Positions 26,255 to 51,779 of a DNA stretch of 64,000 nt are shown here, one piece after another. Source of the DNA: Patescibacteria group bacterium (GTDB lineage: Bacteria; Patescibacteriota; JABMPQ01; JAQVVF01); NCBI GenBank assembly GCA_041662665.1, contig JBAZSC010000001.1, forward strand, positions 1,511-65,510, given 5' to 3'. A model generated the notes under the pieces. The model did not search any database and was not told the origin of the DNA. It saw only the letters and a program-made list of their open reading frames with translations. The position numbers were made by a program, and so were the translations under genes. Each line of letters begins with the position of its first letter. Position 1 is the first letter of the stretch.

Positions 26255-26311
26255 ATCGGCATCAGATCTGCGTTCGATCAGCGTTAGAAATCAGCGTCAT
26301 ATCAGCTTCTA
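26255..26311. repeat. 3'-end-associated direct repeat (GCTGAT-word element), copy overlapping trmL stop
   Basis: ...atcagcgtcatatcagcttcta; 22-bp core identical to 26826-26847; related copy at 44699-44745. Confidence 0.55.
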
Positions 26312-26766
26312 TTCATACTGATCTCGTAAGCCACAATCCCACATGCAACAGAAACATTCAAAGATTCTTTTTTACCTTTCATCGGAATCTCTATAAATTC
26401 ATCACAATATTTTAAAATATCTTTTGATAAACCTGTTACTTCATTGCCTAATACTAATGCAACTGGAAATTTGGGTTTATATTCAAAATAATTAATACTT
26501 TTTTTAGTTTGTTCAAGAGCTACTATATTATAACCACTTTCTTTAAGTTTTTTCAAGATCCGCCAAGTTATTTTAACACTTTCAAACGGTACAAACTTTT
26601 CAGCACCTAATGCAACCTTTGCAATTTTAGAATGAGGTGGTGCAGGTGTAATTCCGCATAAATAGATTTTGTCTATTCCTGCTCCATCAGCAGTTCTAAA
26701 TATAGATCCAACATTGAATCTACTTCTTACATTATCAAGAACTAAAATAAAACTGTCATTTTTCAT
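26302..26766 (-). CDS. trmL: SpoU-family tRNA (cytidine/uridine-2'-O)-methyltransferase (TrmL-like)
   Basis: 154 aa; SpoU motifs NVGSIFRTADGAG, LVLGNEVTGL, ESLNVSVACGIV. Confidence 0.8.
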   Translation of the reverse strand: MKNDSFILVLDNVRSRFNVGSIFRTADGAGIDKIYLCGITPAPPHSKIAKVALGAEKFVPFESVKITWRILKKLKESGYNIVALEQTKKSINYFEYKPKFPVALVLGNEVTGLSKDILKYCDEFIEIPMKGKKESLNVSVACGIVAYEISMNRS

Positions 26767-26800: not shown

Positions 26801-26847
26801 AATCAGAGTCAAATCAGCGTTCGATATCAGCGTCATATCAGCTTCTA
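26801..26847. repeat. 3'-end-associated direct repeat, copy overlapping NUDIX stop codon
   Basis: aatcagagtcaaatcagcgttcgatatcagcgtcatatcagcttcta. Confidence 0.55.
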
Positions 26848-27276
26848 CATCTTCCATTTCAAAATTCCTCGCTTAATTAAATCTGGAAAAATCTTATTCT
26901 TAATAATTGGTGATAATTCATTCCTGTCACTTCCTTGAGTAAACCAGACAATTTCTTTAATTTCACTCGTCGGTCTTGCTTCGTGAGCTATATTTCCTTG
27001 GTATAATTTAATTCTAACAATTTTATTTTCTGATTCGTCATCAGAAGCAGCTTTATCAATATATGTTCCGATATAAGATGGGTCACCAACTATTTTATTA
27101 TCAGATCCGAGCTCTTCTTTAATTTCGCGTCTTAAACAAGTTATATCATCCTCGCCTGCTTCAATTTTACCTCCAGGCAAAATTAATTTAGAAGTATAAT
27201 CTTTCTTGCGACAAAATAAAATTTTATCATTAAGCACAACTAATAAACCTATTTTGTCGAAATCGATATTTTTCAT
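26845..27276 (-). CDS. NUDIX hydrolase
   Basis: 143 aa; Nudix box GGKIEAGEDDITCLRREIKEELG. Confidence 0.8.
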   Translation of the reverse strand: MKNIDFDKIGLLVVLNDKILFCRKKDYTSKLILPGGKIEAGEDDITCLRREIKEELGSDNKIVGDPSYIGTYIDKAASDDESENKIVRIKLYQGNIAHEARPTSEIKEIVWFTQGSDRNELSPIIKNKIFPDLIKRGILKWKM

Positions 27277-27305
27277 TTTTAATTTTGAATTTTTAATTCG
27301 AAATG

Positions 27306-27376
27306 AGGCCTGGACCGGATTTGAACCGATGTACGCAGTTTTGCAAACTGCTGCCTAGCCACTCGGCCACCAGGCC
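27306..27376 (-). tRNA. tRNA-Cys (anticodon GCA)
   Basis: minus strand ggcctggtggccgagtgg...ttGCAaa...ggttcaaatcc...ccaggcct (U73). Confidence 0.85.
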
Positions 27377-27396: not shown

Positions 27397-27468
27397 AGCG
27401 GGTGAGCGGAATCGAACCGCCGTATCGAACTTGGCAAGCTCGCATAATAGCCATTATATTACACCCGC
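27397..27468 (-). tRNA. tRNA-Gly (anticodon GCC), AT-rich D-arm
   Basis: minus strand gcgggtgtaatataatggctat...cgagc ttGCCaa gttcg...ggcggttcgattccgct cacccgc t; first 10 nt overlap the 3' end of the upstream CDS. Confidence 0.75.
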
Positions 27469-28130
27469 ATATTATTTATTTCTTTTGACATTAATTTAAT
27501 CCAAACAAGAACTTTTTCTTTTAAAAAATGACTGTCGTTAACTCTTATGAGACAAATTCCATTCATAAGCCTTGCTGTTGGATGTTTACCATAGATTGTG
27601 CTGCTTTTATCAAAATTTTTAATCGAAATCCCAGTTTTTGAACACCAATATTTTTTACATTCGAAGTCATCTAGATCTGGATATAAAACAAGAGATATAC
27701 GAATTTTTCCTAAATCAACATTACAAATTTTTATAAGAAAATTATAAAATAATTTAATCATTTCTGCATCTGTATTTGATAATCTAAGGGGATATTTCAA
27801 GACTCTATCACCTTCACCCCAATAGAGCATTAAACCAGCAACAAAAAGTAAATTATTTTTTAATACGTGAAATTGGTTTATGGCTTCAACTCTACATTTC
27901 TTAATCTTCGTTAATCTTAGAGCGCCTTGCCTCTTTCTTATAGTTTTAAGATTCTCAATAGAATCAATTTTAGCCTTGTTTATCAAAGATTTTTTAATCA
28001 CGTTTGACCAGCTACAATTTTTGAACCAATAGTGCATCGTGCTTTTTGGAATACCTAATTTATTACTTATTTCATTATAACTAGCACCCTTTTTTCTGAG
28101 TAAAATTGCAGAATGTTTATCATTCCTCAT
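27459..28130 (-). CDS. HTH-domain protein with LAGLIDADG-like motif (putative free-standing homing-endonuclease-like gene), paralog 1
   Basis: 223 aa; N-terminal HTH (GASYNEISNKLGIPKSTMHYWFK); VAGLMLYWGEGD motif; C-terminal ...INNMRV* encoded by atgcgggtgtaa = tRNA-Gly acceptor stem; paralog at 50894..51577. Confidence 0.5.
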   Translation of the reverse strand: MRNDKHSAILLRKKGASYNEISNKLGIPKSTMHYWFKNCSWSNVIKKSLINKAKIDSIENLKTIRKRQGALRLTKIKKCRVEAINQFHVLKNNLLFVAGLMLYWGEGDRVLKYPLRLSNTDAEMIKLFYNFLIKICNVDLGKIRISLVLYPDLDDFECKKYWCSKTGISIKNFDKSSTIYGKHPTARLMNGICLIRVNDSHFLKEKVLVWIKLMSKEINNMRV

Positions 28131-28197
28131 AAATTGAACTTATTAATGTATCAACATTATTATAGCATAATAGTTCAAAGTTGTTAAAGATCAAATT

Positions 28198-28269
28198 TGC
28201 CGAAGGGCAGAATCGGACTGCCGACACAACGGTTTTCAGCCGTTTGCTCTACCACTGAGCTACTTCGGC
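28198..28269 (-). tRNA. tRNA-Phe (anticodon GAA)
   Basis: minus strand gccgaagtagctcagtggtagagc...ctGAAaa...ggcagtccgattctgcc cttcggca. Confidence 0.85.
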
Positions 28270-47954: not shown

Positions 47955-48165
47955 AAAAAGTTAAATAAGTTAGACTAGTTAGACTAGTTAAATAAAAAAG
48001 GCGAGCAATTTTGCTCGTCTTTTCGTTTATGTTTGCTAGAATCGGCTAAGGTTGGAGTGAGATTTAATGAAAAATCTTTTTAAAGATCAATCATTTAAAC
48101 CTTAGCCAGTTTTAGAAAACGAGTTTACCAGTAACTAGTAATTAGTAACTAGTAACTCGAATTAC

Positions 48166-48208
48166 GATTCTCACAATCTTGAAATTTCTTTCAAGACTCT
48201 GAGAATCC
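48166..48208. repeat. degenerate TIR element (gattctcacaatcttgaaa...tttcaagactctgagaatc)
   Basis: diverged member of the gatcctcacaattttggaa...ttccaaagctgtgaggatc family. Confidence 0.45.
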
Positions 48209-48295
48209 GCCAGCATAATATAATAAAAATATGAATAATCGCTAGCGGAATAATGTGCTTCTTAGGGAACAAAATATTAGGGAACAAAATTCTTT

Positions 48296-48556
48296 CTAGG
48301 AATGGTAAACGTACCCCTTTCCATCCATATCCCAGACGTAGATCTTCCAGCCGTCAACGTTGTCCTTAGCCGTCGACACCATCGGGTAGGAGCTGTTCAG
48401 GATGGTCATCTCGAGCATCCCGTACAGAACGATCGCCATCGGGTAGTTCTTGTGGTAGCACGAGGGCACGTACCCGACCTCCTGGACACACGCGATGGCT
48501 TTCTGGTAGAGAACAAATCCAAGCGCGTCCAGTCCGTTCACCTGGTTCGTGATCAT
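48296..48556 (-). CDS. hypothetical protein (86 aa), GC-rich cargo gene
   Basis: GGAGAGG RBS; palindromic operator-like agcatcatg...catgatgct upstream; bounded by TIR elements. Confidence 0.45.
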   Translation of the reverse strand: MITNQVNGLDALGFVLYQKAIACVQEVGYVPSCYHKNYPMAIVLYGMLEMTILNSSYPMVSTAKDNVDGWKIYVWDMDGKGYVYHS

Positions 48557-48655
48557 CTGCCTCTCCGTTGCCTGTTCTCACAGGCTCAAGTGGCTGCACT
48601 TGCAGCATCATGATGACATTTTATCAGCATGATGCTACAAGTCAGATGTTTTAAA

Positions 48656-48719
48656 GATCCTCACAATTTTGGAAACTAGTAGAGAGTAATACACTCATGT
48701 TCCAAAGCTGTGGGGATCC
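48656..48719. repeat. MITE-like element with terminal inverted repeats gatcctcacaattttggaa / ttccaaagctgtggggatc
   Basis: 64 bp; longer family members at 48920-49016, 49674-49790, 50026-50100. Confidence 0.65.
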
Positions 48720-48809
48720 TGCAAAACTTACGTCTTACAGGAAAGGTACAATCGCCGAGAGAGGATCTCGACTTCCCGTTGCCCTATTCGTAGAATCAGG
48801 CATTGGGCA
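48720..48809. repeat. 90-bp repeat 'B' (tgcaaaacttacgtcttacaggaaaggtacaatcgccgagagaggatctcgacttcccgttgccctattcgtagaatcaggcattgggca), copy 1
   Basis: identical copy at 49791-49880; each abuts the 3' end of a minus-strand small-peptide ORF. Confidence 0.7.
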
Positions 48810-48817
48810 ATCAATGT

Positions 48818-48901
48818 TCAGGCGAGTAAACCGTACAAGCACGCAGAAGCAATGATGAGGGCGAAAAGAAATACACCATCAAGCACCAGATTCTTGATCA
48901 T
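48818..48901 (-). CDS. small hydrophobic peptide (27 aa) MIKNLVLDGVFLFALIIASACLYGLLA, type I toxin-like
   Basis: CAGGAGGAACGACAA RBS; single TM helix; stop immediately adjacent to repeat B. Confidence 0.35.
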   Translation of the reverse strand: MIKNLVLDGVFLFALIIASACLYGLLA

Positions 48902-48919
48902 TTGTCGTTCCTCCTGAAA

Positions 48920-49016
48920 GATCCTCACAATTTTGGAACAAGAGATTTCAGAAGGGGAAGGGATTTCCTTCCGACCTCCGACATCCGATTTCCGATTTCC
49001 AAAGCTGTGAGAATCC
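48920..49016. repeat. MITE-like TIR element (long form with internal ccgacctccgacatccgatttccgatttcc word block)
   Basis: same termini as 48656-48719. Confidence 0.65.
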
Positions 49017-49273
49017 GCCAGAAAAAATAATTGAATATTTTACTAGCGGAGAAAGTACCAACAATAATAATGAGCACAGGTGGTCCATTCTTCCGAGTCC
49101 TCCGCCTTCTGCTACAACTCAAGCTCTGCTTGGTCGTCGTATGCAGATTAAGGCTGAACCTTGAGGACGAACAAAGCCTTACAGCTTTGCCCTTCTCGGA
49201 CCGCGGGTTTTGCAGGGAACCCATGGTTAAACCCTCCAGCAAGTCTTAACGCTCTTGCTGGTAGCGTGACACA

Positions 49274-49534
49274 CTACTTTTCGTCCATCTTGAACGAAAA
49301 GTCGTGGACTCCACCAAGCTTATCCTGCACCCTGACGTACAGAGTGCCGTAAGTGGGGATCCGACCCGCCGTGCACGCGTATGTGCGGCTCTCGACGTTT
49401 CCCGAGGCGAACAGACTCGCCTCGCGGATGATGTTCCTTCCCTCCTCCGCCAGGAACCAGGTCCTGGCGATCTCGCCCGTCCAACCGGGCATTGGTCCAC
49501 CGACCAACGCCAAACACTCATCCATCCTCGTCAT
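49274..49534 (-). CDS. hypothetical protein (86 aa), GC-rich cargo gene
   Basis: GAAGGAGAG RBS + ATG; imperfect 45-bp palindrome aatcaccatcataatgattattgagtaatcaacataatggtgatt upstream; overlapping alternative-frame ORFs judged spurious. Confidence 0.45.
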   Translation of the reverse strand: MTRMDECLALVGGPMPGWTGEIARTWFLAEEGRNIIREASLFASGNVESRTYACTAGRIPTYGTLYVRVQDKLGGVHDFSFKMDEK

Positions 49535-49673
49535 AAAACTCTCCTTCGCCCTTTTTTAGGGCGGCTTGCCTCCAGATTGACACCGAGTGAAATCTCGGTA
49601 TGGTCACTCTGTCGGCTCTTTTCAATCACCATCATAATGATTATTGAGTAATCAACATAATGGTGATTAAAAA

Positions 49674-49790
49674 ATATTTTAAAGATCCTCACAATTTTGG
49701 AAACTAGTAGAACAAGGGATTTCAGAAGGGGAAGGGATTTCCTTCCGACTTCCGACATCCGATTTCCGATTTCCAAAGCTGTGGGGATCC
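49674..49790. repeat. MITE-like TIR element (long form)
   Basis: gatcctcacaattttggaaactagtagaacaagggatttcagaaggggaagggatttccttccgacttccgacatccgatttccgatttccaaagctgtggggatcc. Confidence 0.65.
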
Positions 49791-49880
49791 TGCAAAACTT
49801 ACGTCTTACAGGAAAGGTACAATCGCCGAGAGAGGATCTCGACTTCCCGTTGCCCTATTCGTAGAATCAGGCATTGGGCA
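49791..49880. repeat. 90-bp repeat 'B', copy 2 (identical to 48720-48809)
   Basis: read directly. Confidence 0.7.
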
Positions 49881-49889
49881 GGAGTTAGC

Positions 49890-50009
49890 TCAGTGATTGA
49901 TGAAATACCACATGAGGTAGGAGACGACCATCCCAACGCCTACGCCGGCGAGGAATGTGACTGCGAGTTTTGCCTTCAAGGGCAACAGATCCCATTCGCT
50001 CTGTGGCAT
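49890..50009 (-). CDS. small hydrophobic peptide (39 aa) MPQSEWDLLPLKAKLAVTFLAGVGVGMVVSYLMWYFINH, type I toxin-like
   Basis: TAGGAGGGCGTC RBS; one TM helix with aromatic C-terminus; stop abuts repeat B. Confidence 0.35.
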   Translation of the reverse strand: MPQSEWDLLPLKAKLAVTFLAGVGVGMVVSYLMWYFINH

Positions 50010-50025
50010 GACGCCCTCCTAGTTT

Positions 50026-50100
50026 GAATCCTCACAATTTTGGAATAGTTTCCGACTTCCGAAGCTCTAAAGCTCCGACGTTCCAAAGCTGTGAGGATCC
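50026..50100. repeat. MITE-like TIR element
   Basis: gaatcctcacaattttggaatagtttccgacttccgaagctctaaagctccgacgttccaaagctgtgaggatcc. Confidence 0.6.
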
Positions 50101-50339
50101 GGCAAAATATAAATAACAAAGTATTAAATAGATTGCCGAAAAAGAAAGGGTGCCCTATTTCAATACCGCTTGCGCAGTAAAGAAACAAAGCGTCCTAGAG
50201 TATATGCCATTTCACTGGCTAGCTAGTCAAAAACAAGGCGTTTTTGACGGATGCGCTAGCGAAGTGAAAAGTTCATAAAGTCCATAAAGCTATAAAGTAC
50301 GGAAAGCTGGCAAGCATCAGAATCAGTTCGTGGAAGAAT

Positions 50340-50440: not shown

Positions 50441-50804
50441 GTCCCAAAAAAATAGGACAAGCCAATATTTGAAAGAGTGATCAAATACTGACTTGTCCGA
50501 ATTTAGCTTCTTCAAGTTACTAGTTACTAGTAACTAGTAACTAGCTCGCTTGGATCTCACTCCAATATTTTGCTTTTTGCCACATTTCGTGACAATAAGC
50601 TATATTCACTTTTAAATAACAATTTTTATTGTATAATCTATTATACGCTAGTATTGTTATTTTGTCAAGGGTATTTCCAAAATATCAATTGTTTTTGGCT
50701 TATTTAAAGCAAATTAAAAATTAGATTTCTTATATATTTTACATAATAAATTATATACAATATATGCTTGATTTATTTTTGAAATGTATTAAAATAAGAA
50801 CTGA

Positions 50805-50875
50805 CGGGGTGTAGTATACCGGTAGTACACGTGCTTTGGGAGCATGTAGACAGGGTTCAATTCCCTGCACCCCGA
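50805..50875 (+). tRNA. tRNA-Pro (anticodon TGG)
   Basis: cggggtg tagtataccggtagtac...ttTGGga...agggttcaattccct caccccg a. Confidence 0.8.
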
Positions 50876-50893
50876 AAATAATAACTAAATAAA

Positions 50894-51577
50894 ATGAAGT
50901 CTCTAAGCCTTCGGCAAGAAATAATTACTTACCGAAAAAGTGGCTATTCCTACGGGATGATTAGCAAAAAATTTGGTTTATCAAAAAGTACCCTTAGTAC
51001 CTGGCTTAAAGAGATTCCATATACACCTAATAAAGAAGTTATTGATAGAATTGGAAATGCTCGTATGCAATCTGCCACATCGAAGCACAATCAGATGATG
51101 GCTGATATACAAAAAATGAGAAAAGTTGCAAAGGATGAATTAGGAAAATTATCAAAAAGAGATTTATGGATGCTTGGAATCGGTCTTTACATAGGTGAAG
51201 GCAATAAAGCATATGAACAAATAAGATTAACCAATTCCGATCCAAAAATCATACTATTAGCATTAGAATGGTTTAGAACGTTTTGCAATCTTAAAGAAGA
51301 AAATTTTAGAATTAGAATACATATTTATCCAGACATAGTTCCTGATGAAGCACTTAAATATTGGTCAAAAATAACAGGTCTCGCTGAAAAAAATTTTGAT
51401 AAAATTCAAATTGATAGACGTACTAATAAAGTAGCCAAAAAAAGAAGAACGCTTCCATTCGGCACAATTCAAATAGTTATAAAAAGTAATGGTAAGAAAG
51501 AATTCGGAAAAAGTCTTCATCGAAGAATCATGGGTTGGATTGATAATTCTTTAGAACAAATAAATGTGCGGGTGTAA
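50894..51577 (+). CDS. HTH-domain protein with LAGLIDADG-like motif, paralog 2; 3' end embedded in tRNA-Gly
   Basis: 227 aa; HTH GYSYGMISKKFGLSKSTLSTWLK; LGIGLYIGEGNK motif; C-terminal ...QINVRV* = aatgtgcgggtgtaa overlapping the tRNA-Gly(TCC) acceptor stem; homologous over the full length to 27459..28130. Confidence 0.5.
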   Translation: MKSLSLRQEIITYRKSGYSYGMISKKFGLSKSTLSTWLKEIPYTPNKEVIDRIGNARMQSATSKHNQMMADIQKMRKVAKDELGKLSKRDLWMLGIGLYIGEGNKAYEQIRLTNSDPKIILLALEWFRTFCNLKEENFRIRIHIYPDIVPDEALKYWSKITGLAEKNFDKIQIDRRTNKVAKKRRTLPFGTIQIVIKSNGKKEFGKSLHRRIMGWIDNSLEQINVRV

Positions 51578-51638
51578 TTTAATGGTAAAATATCTCTTTT
51601 CCAAAGAGATTACAGGAGTTCGATTCTCCTTACCCGCT
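51568..51638 (+). tRNA. tRNA-Gly (anticodon TCC)
   Basis: gcgggtg taatttaatggtaaaata tctct ttTCCaa agaga...aggagttcgattctcct tacccgc t. Confidence 0.75.
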
Positions 51639-51779
51639 TATTAAATATTAAAAATTTCAAATTTTAAAACAGCATTTAACTCGCTGTTTTTTATTAACAA
51701 AAAACATAATTAATAACATTTTCCATAAAATAATTATTATGTTATAATAATTCAAAAGACTACCATATCAAAAACAAAA

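What the first reader, a model, noticed from the sequence alone, without database searches (positions are those of the whole stretch)
50805..51638. Second copy of the same HTH/LAGLIDADG-like gene, again fused to the 5' end of a tRNA-Gly (anticodon TCC this time)
The 227-aa plus-strand ORF 50894..51577 is homologous over its full length to 27459..28130. The motifs L-G-I-G-L-Y-I-G-E-G-N and I-x-I-x-I-Y-P-D...K-Y-W-S-K-x-T-G...N-F-D-K are conserved.

It ends ...QINVRV* = aatgtgcgggtgtaa, where gcgggtgtaa is the start of tRNA-Gly(TCC). It is preceded by tRNA-Pro(TGG).

Two independent loci with the same 10-nt CDS/tRNA overlap means the C-terminal M/V-R-V is dictated by the shared tRNA-Gly acceptor stem, or the reverse. 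This is a conserved, apparently undescribed gene-tRNA fusion architecture.
Basis: seen in the sequence. Interest (0 to 1): 0.8.

Follow-up and report, generated by a model that had tools for sequence, protein, structure and literature searches.

The report
Endonuclease-like gene lodged before tRNA-Gly
Both glycine tRNA genes in this window are preceded by a gene for a DNA-binding, homing-endonuclease-like protein from a large unnamed family; related genomes lack the gene at exactly these spots, so it is probably a selfish insertion, and its overlap with the tRNA is incidental.

Summary
ORF B (50894..51577, +) ends 10 nt inside tRNA-Gly(TCC). ORF A (27459..28130, -) ends 10 nt inside tRNA-Gly(GCC). 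The two proteins are homologous (E=8e-26).

They belong to a large unnamed Patescibacteria family (about 3,800 clusters at 50% identity with E<=1e-10). The architecture is an N-terminal HTH, a long helix, and one divergent LAGLIDADG-like domain whose acidic residue is conserved (E or D in 97%).

In 62 of 62 informative orthologous loci the gene lies directly 5' of tRNA-Gly(TCC). Only 26 of those overlap the tRNA (by 15, 10 or 1 nt); the other 36 stop 0-31 nt before it. The "fusion" is therefore read-through to the first stop codon in the tRNA. What is conserved is tight adjacency.

Protein clades follow the tRNA downstream (Gly-TCC, Gly-GCC, Met, Arg, Val). Syntenic relatives have empty sites in which tRNA-Pro and tRNA-Gly are 3-6 nt apart. 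Some copies are pseudogenes, there are no terminal repeats, and dN/dS is 0.06-0.17.

Best reading: a free-standing LAGLIDADG-type homing-endonuclease gene sitting in the tRNA 5' leader, which tRNA processing should remove. No nuclease activity or homing has been shown. No description was found in the literature searched.

The parts
50768..50795 (+). Promoter-like site (TTGATT-16-TAAAAT) just upstream of tRNA-Pro. It is the likely start of a tRNA-Pro / ORF B / tRNA-Gly transcript.
   Evidence: Consensus scan, 9 of 12 matches. Weak evidence on its own.
50805..50875 (+). tRNA-Pro(TGG), the left boundary of insertion B.
   Evidence: ARAGORN. Rfam 59.3 bits.
50876..51567 (+). Insertion B: 692 nt between tRNA-Pro and tRNA-Gly. 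Related genomes have a 3-6 nt spacer here.
   Evidence: Empty-site relatives L134 and L188 compared with filled L029 and L011.
50894..51577 (+). ORF B, 227 aa, an HTH-LAGLIDADG-like protein of the tRNA-Gly(TCC) clade.
50909..51004 (+). N-terminal three-helix HTH (residues 6-37).
   Evidence: Sub-threshold Pfam HTH_28, HTH_SB and HTH_23 hits; HTH_23 in 99 of 111 members. AF2 helices 6-15, 20-27 and 31-37.
51032..51142 (+). Long single helix (residues 47-83) linking the HTH to the nuclease-like domain.
   Evidence: AF2 model, pLDDT above 90.
51155..51565 (+). Single divergent LAGLIDADG-like alpha/beta domain (residues 88-224).
51164..51208 (+). LAGLIDADG-type motif L-W-M-L-G-I-G-L-Y-I-G-E-G-N-K (residues 91-105). 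E102 (51197..51199) is the putative catalytic acid.
   Evidence: It aligns with I-DmoI G-L-Y-V-A-E(117)-G-D-K, and the I-DmoI E117A chain scores about 4 bits lower. E or D in 97% of 389 family members, the following G in 99%, and N114 in 97%.
51568..51638 (+). tRNA-Gly(TCC). Its first 10 nt (51568..51577) also encode R-V-stop of ORF B.
   Evidence: ARAGORN. Rfam 66.5 bits. Sequence.
51669..51693 (+). Hairpin (ACAGC / GCTGT, 9-nt loop) followed by a T-run, a possible terminator after tRNA-Gly.
   Evidence: Read from the sequence. Not called by the scan, whose loop limit is 8 nt.
28198..28269 (-). tRNA-Phe(GAA), the left boundary of insertion A.
28159..28187 (-). Promoter-like site TTAACA-17-TG-n-TATAAT between tRNA-Phe and ORF A.
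   Evidence: Consensus scan, 11 of 12 matches with an extended -10. A similar TTGAAC-17-TATAAT site precedes the ORF in 26 of 63 related loci, against 0 of 63 control windows.
27459..28130 (-). ORF A, 223 aa, the paralogue of the tRNA-Gly(GCC) clade.
27397..27468 (-). tRNA-Gly(GCC). Its first 10 nt (27459..27468) encode R-V-stop of ORF A.
27305..27376 (-). tRNA-Cys(GCA), the next gene in the same tRNA operon.

Best explanation
Each locus is a free-standing homing-endonuclease-type gene. It encodes one divergent LAGLIDADG domain, expected to act as a homodimer, fused to an N-terminal HTH. It sits in the few nucleotides in front of a specific tRNA gene, inside the 5' leader of the tRNA precursor.

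Shown here:
- The protein family exists and is large.
- Its fold and motif resemble LAGLIDADG enzymes, with the acidic residue retained.
- Each protein clade keeps to one tRNA gene.
- The gene is present or absent at exactly the same site in syntenic genomes.
- Decayed copies exist alongside copies under strong purifying selection.

Inferred, not shown:
- The protein cuts the uninterrupted junction between the upstream sequence and the tRNA in genomes that lack the gene.
- Repair from a gene-bearing copy then installs the gene.
- The position is harmless because 5'-leader removal (by RNase P, from general knowledge) releases a normal tRNA, much as splicing makes intron-borne endonuclease genes harmless.
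- The ORF is expressed from the tRNA operon promoter or from a promoter just upstream of it.
- The overlap with the tRNA arises because the insertion ends flush with the tRNA. An ORF without its own stop reads on to TAA/TAG at tRNA positions 8-10 or 13-15.
For: 1. Fold and motif.
- The AF2 model is confident (pLDDT 88.6).
- Family profiles find I-DmoI's second LAGLIDADG motif at E about 0.001-0.002. With the domain-only profile nothing else in the PDB appears up to E=10.
- The acidic residue is E or D in 97% of 389 members, and N114 is kept in 97%.

2. Site specificity.
- 62 of 62 informative loci of the B clade have tRNA-Gly(TCC) on the same strand, -15 to +31 nt from the stop.
- In a neighbour-joining tree the clades match the downstream tRNA: Gly-TCC, Gly-GCC, Met-CAT, Arg and Val-TAC.
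- One genome (L030) has three paralogues, before tRNA-Arg(TCG), tRNA-Gly(TCC) and tRNA-Gly(GCC).

3. Presence/absence at the same site.
- L134 has tRNA-Pro, 6 nt, then tRNA-Gly. L029 has an identical tRNA-Pro and an 83%-identical flank but 722 nt containing the gene.
- L188 (3-nt spacer) is syntenic on both sides with the filled loci L011, L008 and L014.
- L091, L129 and L167 have tRNA-Phe 2-6 nt from tRNA-Gly(GCC), the empty form of locus A.
- Of tRNA-Gly genes sharing one 18-nt 5' sequence in metagenomes, only 1 of 45 (TCC) and 4 of 25 (GCC) have the gene upstream.

4. Life-cycle signs.
- Interrupted copies occur in L024, L059 and L063.
- dN/dS is 0.06-0.17 in eight intact pairs.

5. Precedents.
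- T4 SegB is a free-standing homing endonuclease in a tRNA cluster that recognises tRNA-gene sequence (PMC2330249).
- Single-domain LAGLIDADG enzymes are active in rRNA insertions of the same bacterial group (PMC11270868).
Against: - No nuclease activity, cleavage site or homing event has been shown.
- No Pfam LAGLIDADG model matches any of 111 members, even at E<=1.
- Within the Gly-TCC clade the protein tree roughly follows taxonomy (Staskawiczbacteria, Kaiserbacteria and Microgenomates group together). Selection is strongly purifying. Long vertical inheritance with occasional loss would therefore explain the empty sites as well as gain would.
- Homing needs two alleles in one cell. How that would happen in these bacteria is not known.
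- Some distant family members are not next to any tRNA (L065, L069, L073, L074).
Confidence: 0.55

Rival explanations
1. A domesticated LAGLIDADG-derived DNA-binding protein, comparable to WhiA. It would be a transcription factor or chromosome-organising factor for the tRNA operon in which it sits, inherited vertically and lost in some lineages.
For: - dN/dS is 0.06-0.17.
- The tree is broadly congruent with taxonomy inside the Gly-TCC clade.
- The family is very large and present across several Patescibacteria lineages.
- A uniform TTGAAC-17-TATAAT promoter lies next to the gene.
Against: - The acidic LAGLIDADG residue and the I-DmoI-N129-equivalent Asn are kept in 97% of members. From general knowledge, WhiA has lost its catalytic residues.
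- Close relatives lack the gene, with only 3-6 nt left between the tRNAs.
- Occupancy among sampled tRNA-Gly genes is low.
- Pseudogenes exist.
- Separate paralogue clades are each dedicated to a different tRNA gene. That is the pattern of site-specific insertion, not of a single regulator.
Confidence: 0.22
2. An RNA-directed role. The protein would bind or help process the tRNA precursor it is co-transcribed with, like a maturase. Alternatively, the overlap would couple its translation to tRNA maturation as a regulatory device.
For: - From general knowledge, LAGLIDADG proteins have repeatedly become RNA maturases.
- The ORF is always on the same strand and in the same transcript as the tRNA.
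- In 26 of 62 loci, leader cleavage would remove the stop codon.
Against: - The tRNAs are ordinary and function in relatives without the gene.
- The overlap is absent in 36 of 62 loci, so it cannot be required.
- The HTH and the conserved acidic site point to DNA.
Confidence: 0.08
3. A small insertion sequence or integrative element whose HTH protein is a transposase or recombinase with a preference for tRNA 5' ends.
For: - The N-terminal HTH resembles those of IS630/Tc1, Sleeping Beauty and resolvases.
- The gene shows presence/absence polymorphism.
Against: - There are no terminal inverted repeats or target-site duplications around either window insertion.
- There is no DDE, serine- or tyrosine-recombinase domain. 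The C-terminal domain matches LAGLIDADG proteins instead.
- There is one copy per target rather than scattered copies.
Confidence: 0.05

Closest known systems
Phage T4 SegB (free-standing GIY-YIG homing endonuclease in the T4 tRNA gene cluster; PMC2330249)
   Same: It is a free-standing endonuclease gene lodged between tRNA genes. Related genomes lack it at that place. Its recognition site includes conserved tRNA-gene sequence. The surrounding tRNA genes are inherited with it.
   Different: SegB has a different catalytic fold (GIY-YIG, not LAGLIDADG). It is in a phage, not a bacterial chromosome. It recognises the T-psi-C arm shared by many tRNAs, whereas each clade here keeps to one tRNA and abuts its 5' end. 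SegB's activity is proven; none is proven here.
Single-domain (homodimeric) LAGLIDADG homing endonucleases such as I-CreI, I-CeuI, I-Vdi141I, and I-ShaI from rRNA insertions of the same bacterial group (PMC11270868)
   Same: There is one LAGLIDADG-type helix ending in an acidic residue, followed by an alpha/beta DNA-binding platform. The size is about 140 aa. The same bacterial group is already known to be rich in such enzymes.
   Different: Those enzymes lie inside introns or insertions of rRNA genes and match Pfam LAGLIDADG_1/2/3. This family matches none of those models. It carries an extra N-terminal HTH and a long helix. It is free-standing in a tRNA leader.
I-DmoI (archaeal two-domain LAGLIDADG endonuclease)
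   Same: It is the only PDB protein found by the family's sequence profile. The motif G-L-Y-x-x-E-G-D-K ... N aligns with I-DmoI's second motif, including E117, K120 and N129.
   Different: I-DmoI is a monomer with two domains and is encoded in an rRNA intron. The similarity is limited to about 35-45 residues at E about 0.001.
WhiA (LAGLIDADG-derived transcription factor of Gram-positive bacteria)
   Different: WhiA has two LAGLIDADG domains without catalytic residues and a C-terminal HTH, and it is a core gene. This family has one domain with the acidic residue kept and an N-terminal HTH, and it is patchily present.
Group I introns with homing-endonuclease genes in tRNA genes of Patescibacteria (PMC13011429)
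   Same: Same bacteria and same kind of target (tRNA genes). The logic is the same: the insertion is removed from the RNA, so the tRNA stays intact.
   Different: Those are ribozyme introns inside the anticodon loop. Here there is no intron (no Rfam group I match), and the gene lies outside the mature tRNA, in its leader.

Membership tests
LAGLIDADG homing endonucleases | Alpha/beta fold with an N-terminal helix packed at the (pseudo)dimer interface, followed by a beta-sheet platform | tested here: met
LAGLIDADG homing endonucleases | LAGLIDADG-type motif ending in a conserved acidic residue that binds the catalytic metal | tested here: met
   The family motif G-x-x-L-Y-x-G-E-G aligns with I-DmoI's second motif. 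The E117A mutant chain scores 17.4 against 21.7 bits. E or D in 97% of 389 members.
LAGLIDADG homing endonucleases | Match to a curated family model (Pfam LAGLIDADG_1, _2, _3, or WhiA-type) | tested here: not met
   No such hit at E<=1 in the two window proteins or in any of the 111 aligned members. Only HTH models match. NCBIfam and PHROGs also give only HTH-type hits.
LAGLIDADG homing endonucleases | Site-specific double-strand cleavage of the allele that lacks the gene | not testable with these tools
   This needs purified protein and an empty-site substrate.
Homing endonuclease genes in general | Gene present or absent at one defined site in otherwise homologous DNA | tested here: met
   L134 against L029, L188 against L011/L008/L014, and L091/L129/L167 for the Gly(GCC) site.
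Homing endonuclease genes in general | Evidence of gain or horizontal spread, not only loss | tested here: inconclusive
   Clades track the target tRNA, and a few members sit in contigs labelled Chloroflexota or on very large viral-collection contigs. However, the tree inside the main clade follows taxonomy, and no reconciliation was done.
Intron- or intein-encoded endonucleases | Gene embedded in a self-splicing intron or an intein | tested here: not met
   No group I or group II intron match around either locus. The flanking tRNAs are complete. The ORF stands alone.
WhiA | Two degenerate LAGLIDADG domains lacking catalytic residues, plus a C-terminal HTH | tested here: not met
   One domain, acidic residue conserved, HTH at the N-terminus. 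No Pfam WhiA hits.
Insertion sequences / transposons | Terminal inverted repeats and target-site duplication; transposase catalytic domain | tested here: not met
   No bounding repeats at either locus. No transposase catalytic domain; only HTH similarity.
   26 of 62 loci overlap (by 15, 10 or 1 nt, in different frames). The other 36 stop 0-31 nt upstream.

The most novel reading that the evidence does not exclude
The 5' leader of a tRNA precursor may be a previously unrecognised safe harbour for homing-endonuclease genes, with leader removal (RNase P) playing the part that splicing plays for intron-borne genes.

Where the ORF ends inside the tRNA, as at both loci in this window, leader cleavage would cut off the stop codon. 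Full-length protein could then come only from unprocessed precursor, and processed mRNA would go to non-stop decay. That would tie endonuclease dosage inversely to tRNA maturation.

Because each paralogue clade reads a different tRNA gene, the family would also be a natural set of LAGLIDADG enzymes with diversified, tRNA-gene-specific targets.
Probability: 0.25. Interest if true: 0.75.

Novelty: new variant of a known kind. Interest (0 to 1): 0.6.

Why it matters
- **A name for an unannotated family.** Thousands of 'hypothetical' or 'HTH-domain' proteins in Patescibacteria would gain a name and a testable activity.
- **A new niche for endonuclease genes.** It would add a chromosomal, free-standing niche to the introns, inteins and phage intergenic regions already known, explained by tRNA leader processing.
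- **Variation in tRNA operons.** It would account for part of the unusual spacing and layout of tRNA operons in these reduced genomes.
- **Possible tools.** It could supply compact LAGLIDADG enzymes with varied specificities.
- **Annotation.** The C-terminal residues and the ORF/tRNA overlap should not be read as a functional fusion. The public gene call for ORF B starts 21 codons too late.

Tried and rejected
- **Conserved 10-nt fusion.** Rejected: orthologues end at -15, -10, -1 or 0 to +31 nt relative to the tRNA.
- **False-positive tRNAs.** Rejected: both pass Rfam at 58.8-66.5 bits.
- **Group I or group II intron context.** Nothing in Rfam at the gathering threshold or at E<=1.
- **Insertion sequence or transposon.** No terminal inverted repeats or target duplications.
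- **Curated family assignment.** Pfam, NCBIfam and PHROGs return only sub-threshold HTH hits.
- **Foldseek.** Searches of the PDB and of viral structures gave no match at E<=0.001. The afdb50 library was unavailable.
- **RecA hits in the single-sequence PDB search**. No aligned stretch passed on its own, and the hits vanished with the family profile. Treated as spurious.
- **Third protein search with a domain-only profile**. The 120 listed hits were all from within the family, so it gave no bridge to annotated LAGLIDADG families.
- **Phage reservoir.** Only two related loci were found in the viral collection, both on 372-497 kb contigs.
- **Occupancy figures**. These mix phyla, because the 18-nt tRNA-Gly pattern is not specific to Patescibacteria. 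Only loci whose flanks match Patescibacteria loci were used as empty sites.

Full report
**1. The observation**

The plus-strand ORF 50894..51577 (227 aa...QINVRV*) is real. ARAGORN places tRNA-Pro(TGG) at 50805..50875 and tRNA-Gly(TCC) at 51568..51638. Rfam's tRNA model scores them 59.3 and 66.5 bits.

The ORF's last 10 nt, GCGGGTGTAA, are the first 10 nt of tRNA-Gly, so the stop codon is tRNA positions 8-10. The minus-strand ORF 27459..28130 (223 aa...INNMRV*) overlaps tRNA-Gly(GCC) 27397..27468 by the same 10 nt. That tRNA scores 58.8 bits.

The two proteins are homologous: BLASTP gives E=8e-26 and 33% identity over 173 aa. A family profile covers both from end to end and finds no third copy in the window. 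At the nucleotide level the two junctions are alike only in the tRNA and the two or three codons before it.

**2. The protein family**

Each copy has hundreds of relatives, 557 for B and 214 for A. Almost all come from metagenome-assembled Patescibacteria genomes (Nealson-, Staskawicz-, Portnoy-, Specht-, Kaiser- and Collierbacteria, among others). They are annotated as hypothetical or 'helix-turn-helix domain-containing'.

A profile search of 1.84 billion cluster representatives finds 6,302 clusters at E<=0.001, 3,849 at E<=1e-10 and 628 at E<=1e-30.

Pfam, NCBIfam and PHROGs recognise only the N-terminal HTH, and only below threshold. No LAGLIDADG model matches any of 111 members.

The AlphaFold2 model built on a 111-sequence alignment is confident (pLDDT 88.6). 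It shows:
- a three-helix HTH (residues 6-37);
- a 37-residue single helix;
- an alpha/beta domain (residues 88-224).

The family's sequence profile independently hits I-DmoI's second LAGLIDADG motif, at E about 0.001-0.002. With the domain-only profile, nothing else in the PDB appears up to E=10. The alignment puts the family's G-E-G-D-K...N on I-DmoI's A-E117-G-D-K120...N129. The I-DmoI E117A chain scores about 4 bits lower.

Across 389 family members the acidic residue is E or D in 97%, the following Gly is kept in 99%, and the Asn in 97%.

My conclusion is a divergent single-domain LAGLIDADG-type protein with an added HTH. The catalytic acid is retained, unlike in WhiA (the WhiA point is from general knowledge).

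**3. What is conserved around the gene**

A scan of one genome per species returned at least 549 related loci, of which 80 were kept.

Among the 63 loci of the B clade, 62 have tRNA-Gly(TCC) on the same strand directly after the ORF. The 63rd (L043) reaches the contig end 41 nt after its stop, so it is uninformative.

The distance from stop codon to tRNA in those 62 loci is:

| Offset | Loci |
|---|---|
| -15 nt | 18 |
| -10 nt | 6 |
| -1 nt | 2 |
| 0 to +31 nt | 36 |

The C-termini of the database proteins tell the same story. They fall into classes ...NQI*...xRV*/xRE* (CGG GTG/GAG TAA) and ...AG[VMI]V* (GCG GGT RTR GTT TAA).

The overlap is therefore not a conserved fusion. An ORF that lacks its own stop reads into the tRNA until it meets TAA or TAG at positions 8-10 or 13-15. 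The conserved trait is that the gene ends flush with the tRNA's 5' end.

More distant relatives sit in the same way before tRNA-Gly(GCC), tRNA-Met(CAT), tRNA-Arg(TCT/TCG), tRNA-Val(TAC) and tRNA-Ala(TGC). In a neighbour-joining tree the clades coincide with the tRNA downstream. One genome (L030) has three paralogues before three different tRNAs. A few distant members are not next to a tRNA.

**4. The gene is an insertion that relatives lack**

I scanned metagenome contigs for an 18-nt tRNA-Gly 5' sequence common in these loci.

Of the tRNA-Gly genes with at least 700 nt of upstream sequence, only 1 of 45 (TCC) and 4 of 25 (GCC) have a family ORF upstream. That sample mixes phyla. I therefore looked for contigs whose flanks match the gene-bearing loci. 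These gave clean empty sites:
- **L134 against L029.** L134 has tRNA-Pro, 6 nt, then tRNA-Gly. L029 has a 100% identical tRNA-Pro, an 83%-identical upstream flank and a similar downstream region, but 722 nt carrying the gene between the two tRNAs.
- **L188 against L011, L008 and L014.** L188 has a 3-nt spacer and is syntenic on both sides (67-73% identity) with these filled loci.
- **The Gly(GCC) site.** L091, L129 and L167 have tRNA-Phe 2-6 nt from tRNA-Gly(GCC). This is the unoccupied form of the window's locus A.

In window coordinates, the insertions are 50876..51567 (692 nt) and 27469..28197 (729 nt).

Other properties of the insertion:
- Neither window insertion is bounded by inverted repeats or target duplications.
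- Interrupted copies occur in L024, L059 and L063.
- Intact orthologue pairs show dN/dS of 0.06-0.17.

**5. Expression context**

Locus A has a strong promoter-like site (TTAACA-17-TG-n-TATAAT, 28187..28159) between tRNA-Phe and the ATG. Locus B has only 18 nt between tRNA-Pro and the ATG, with a weaker promoter-like site before tRNA-Pro.

In 26 of 63 related loci a TTGAAC-17-TATAAT-type site lies within about 100 nt upstream of the ORF. None was found in 63 control windows inside the ORFs.

Some gene-less relatives with spacers of about 100 nt (for example L105) also carry a promoter-like sequence before tRNA-Gly. So the ORF appears to lie between a promoter and the tRNA, that is, in the tRNA's 5' leader.

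From general knowledge, RNase P cuts at tRNA position +1. That would release a normal tRNA whatever lies upstream. In the overlapping cases it would also remove the ORF's stop codon. This step is inferred, not shown.

**6. Interpretation**

The best-supported reading is a free-standing LAGLIDADG-type homing-endonuclease gene that targets the junction in front of a particular tRNA gene. The supporting pattern is:
- a nuclease-type fold with the catalytic acid kept;
- clades dedicated to particular tRNA genes;
- exact presence/absence at one site;
- pseudogenes alongside selected copies;
- no transposon ends.

The closest precedent is T4 SegB. It is a free-standing GIY-YIG endonuclease inside the phage tRNA cluster, and its recognition site includes tRNA-gene sequence (PMC2330249). 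Active single-domain LAGLIDADG enzymes are already documented in rRNA insertions of these bacteria (PMC11270868). Intron-borne endonuclease genes occur in their tRNA genes (PMC13011429).

The main rival is a domesticated, WhiA-like DNA-binding protein that is inherited vertically and sometimes lost. Strong purifying selection and the rough agreement of the tree with taxonomy fit it. The conserved active-site residues, the low occupancy and the multi-tRNA clade structure fit it less well.

Nothing here demonstrates cleavage or homing.

**7. Novelty**

Four full-text searches found no description of this family or of endonuclease genes in bacterial tRNA leaders. The library searched is incomplete.

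I rate it a new variant of a known kind. Homing-endonuclease biology and the LAGLIDADG fold are known. The domain architecture (HTH, long helix, one LAGLIDADG domain), the absence of any curated model, and the niche (chromosomal tRNA 5' leaders, one clade per tRNA) appear to be new.

**8. Verdict**

The 'fusion' interpretation is replaced by 'insertion flush with the tRNA'. Interest is moderate to high (0.6).

Noticed in passing
window 48150..50130 (best read on the minus strand): A GC-rich block (43-59% GC in a genome of about 30% GC) has no ORF longer than 115 aa. It contains small ORFs preceded by AGGAGG-type ribosome-binding sites, which the neighbouring native genes lack. These are separated by five copies of a hairpin module, GGATCCTCACAGCTTTGGAA ... 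TTCCAAAATTGTGAGGATC. One 110-nt segment is duplicated exactly (48700-48809 = 49771-49880). It looks like a cassette array or a foreign insert. No Rfam family matches.
   Followed up: partly
window 50445..50632, minus strand: A candidate small RNA of about 190 nt. It has a perfect TTGACA-17-TATAAT promoter (50668..50640) and an 18-bp hairpin plus U-run terminator (50498..50445). Folding energy z-score is -8.7. It contains a palindromic GUUACUAGUUACUAGUAACUAGUAAC stretch. No Rfam match at E<=1 apart from a spurious SL1 hit.
   Followed up: partly
L001 591-1097, L004 216-719, L007 2132-2629 (all minus strand), L064 3932-4423: A Cys-rich ORF of about 165 aa (MPIVKCKICKKEFYAKPSWLK-GWGKYCS...) fills the roughly 545-650 nt gap between tRNA-His and tRNA-Arg(TCT) in several related genomes. 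It resembles zinc-finger/HNH-type endonuclease genes and may be a second kind of gene lodged between tRNAs. Not searched against families.
   Followed up: no
L038, L039, L042, L043, L049, L061 (between tRNA-Gly(GCC) and tRNA-Pro(TGG)): A protein of about 135 aa with a YraN/UPF0102-like signature (GELD-[LIV]-[VI]-A ... HF-[VI]-EVK) regularly occupies the roughly 590-690 nt spacer upstream of tRNA-Pro. It is another nuclease-fold gene embedded in these tRNA operons.
   Followed up: no
L024 2938-3666, L059 1217-1975, L063 2950-3518: Family copies interrupted by a stop or frameshift (split profile hits), still next to tRNA-Gly(TCC). These are decaying copies.
   Followed up: partly
L081 and L082, 3001-3573 (IMG/VR contigs of 497 kb and 372 kb): A distant family member (29% identity) lies inside a tRNA array (two tRNA-Asn, two tRNA-Glu) on very large contigs of the viral collection, but on the strand opposite to the tRNAs. 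These could be a huge phage or a misfiled cellular contig.
   Followed up: partly
L054, L057, L062: Family members next to tRNA-Gly(TCC) occur on contigs labelled Chloroflexia, Herpetosiphonaceae and Ardenticatenales, and they form their own branch. This could be real spread outside Patescibacteria or binning error. L054 is a 304-kb contig.
   Followed up: no
window 50894..50956: The public gene call for ORF B (P0001, 206 aa) starts at Met22. Homologues conserve the preceding 21 residues, which form the first HTH helix, so the deposited annotation truncates the DNA-binding domain.
   Followed up: yes
window 26302..26766 and 26845..27276, minus strand: A SpoU/TrmH-like methyltransferase-looking ORF (154 aa) and a NUDIX-looking ORF (143 aa) sit between tRNA-Cys and tRNA-Leu(TAA), in the same tRNA-rich stretch as locus A. 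Both were identified by eye only.
   Followed up: no
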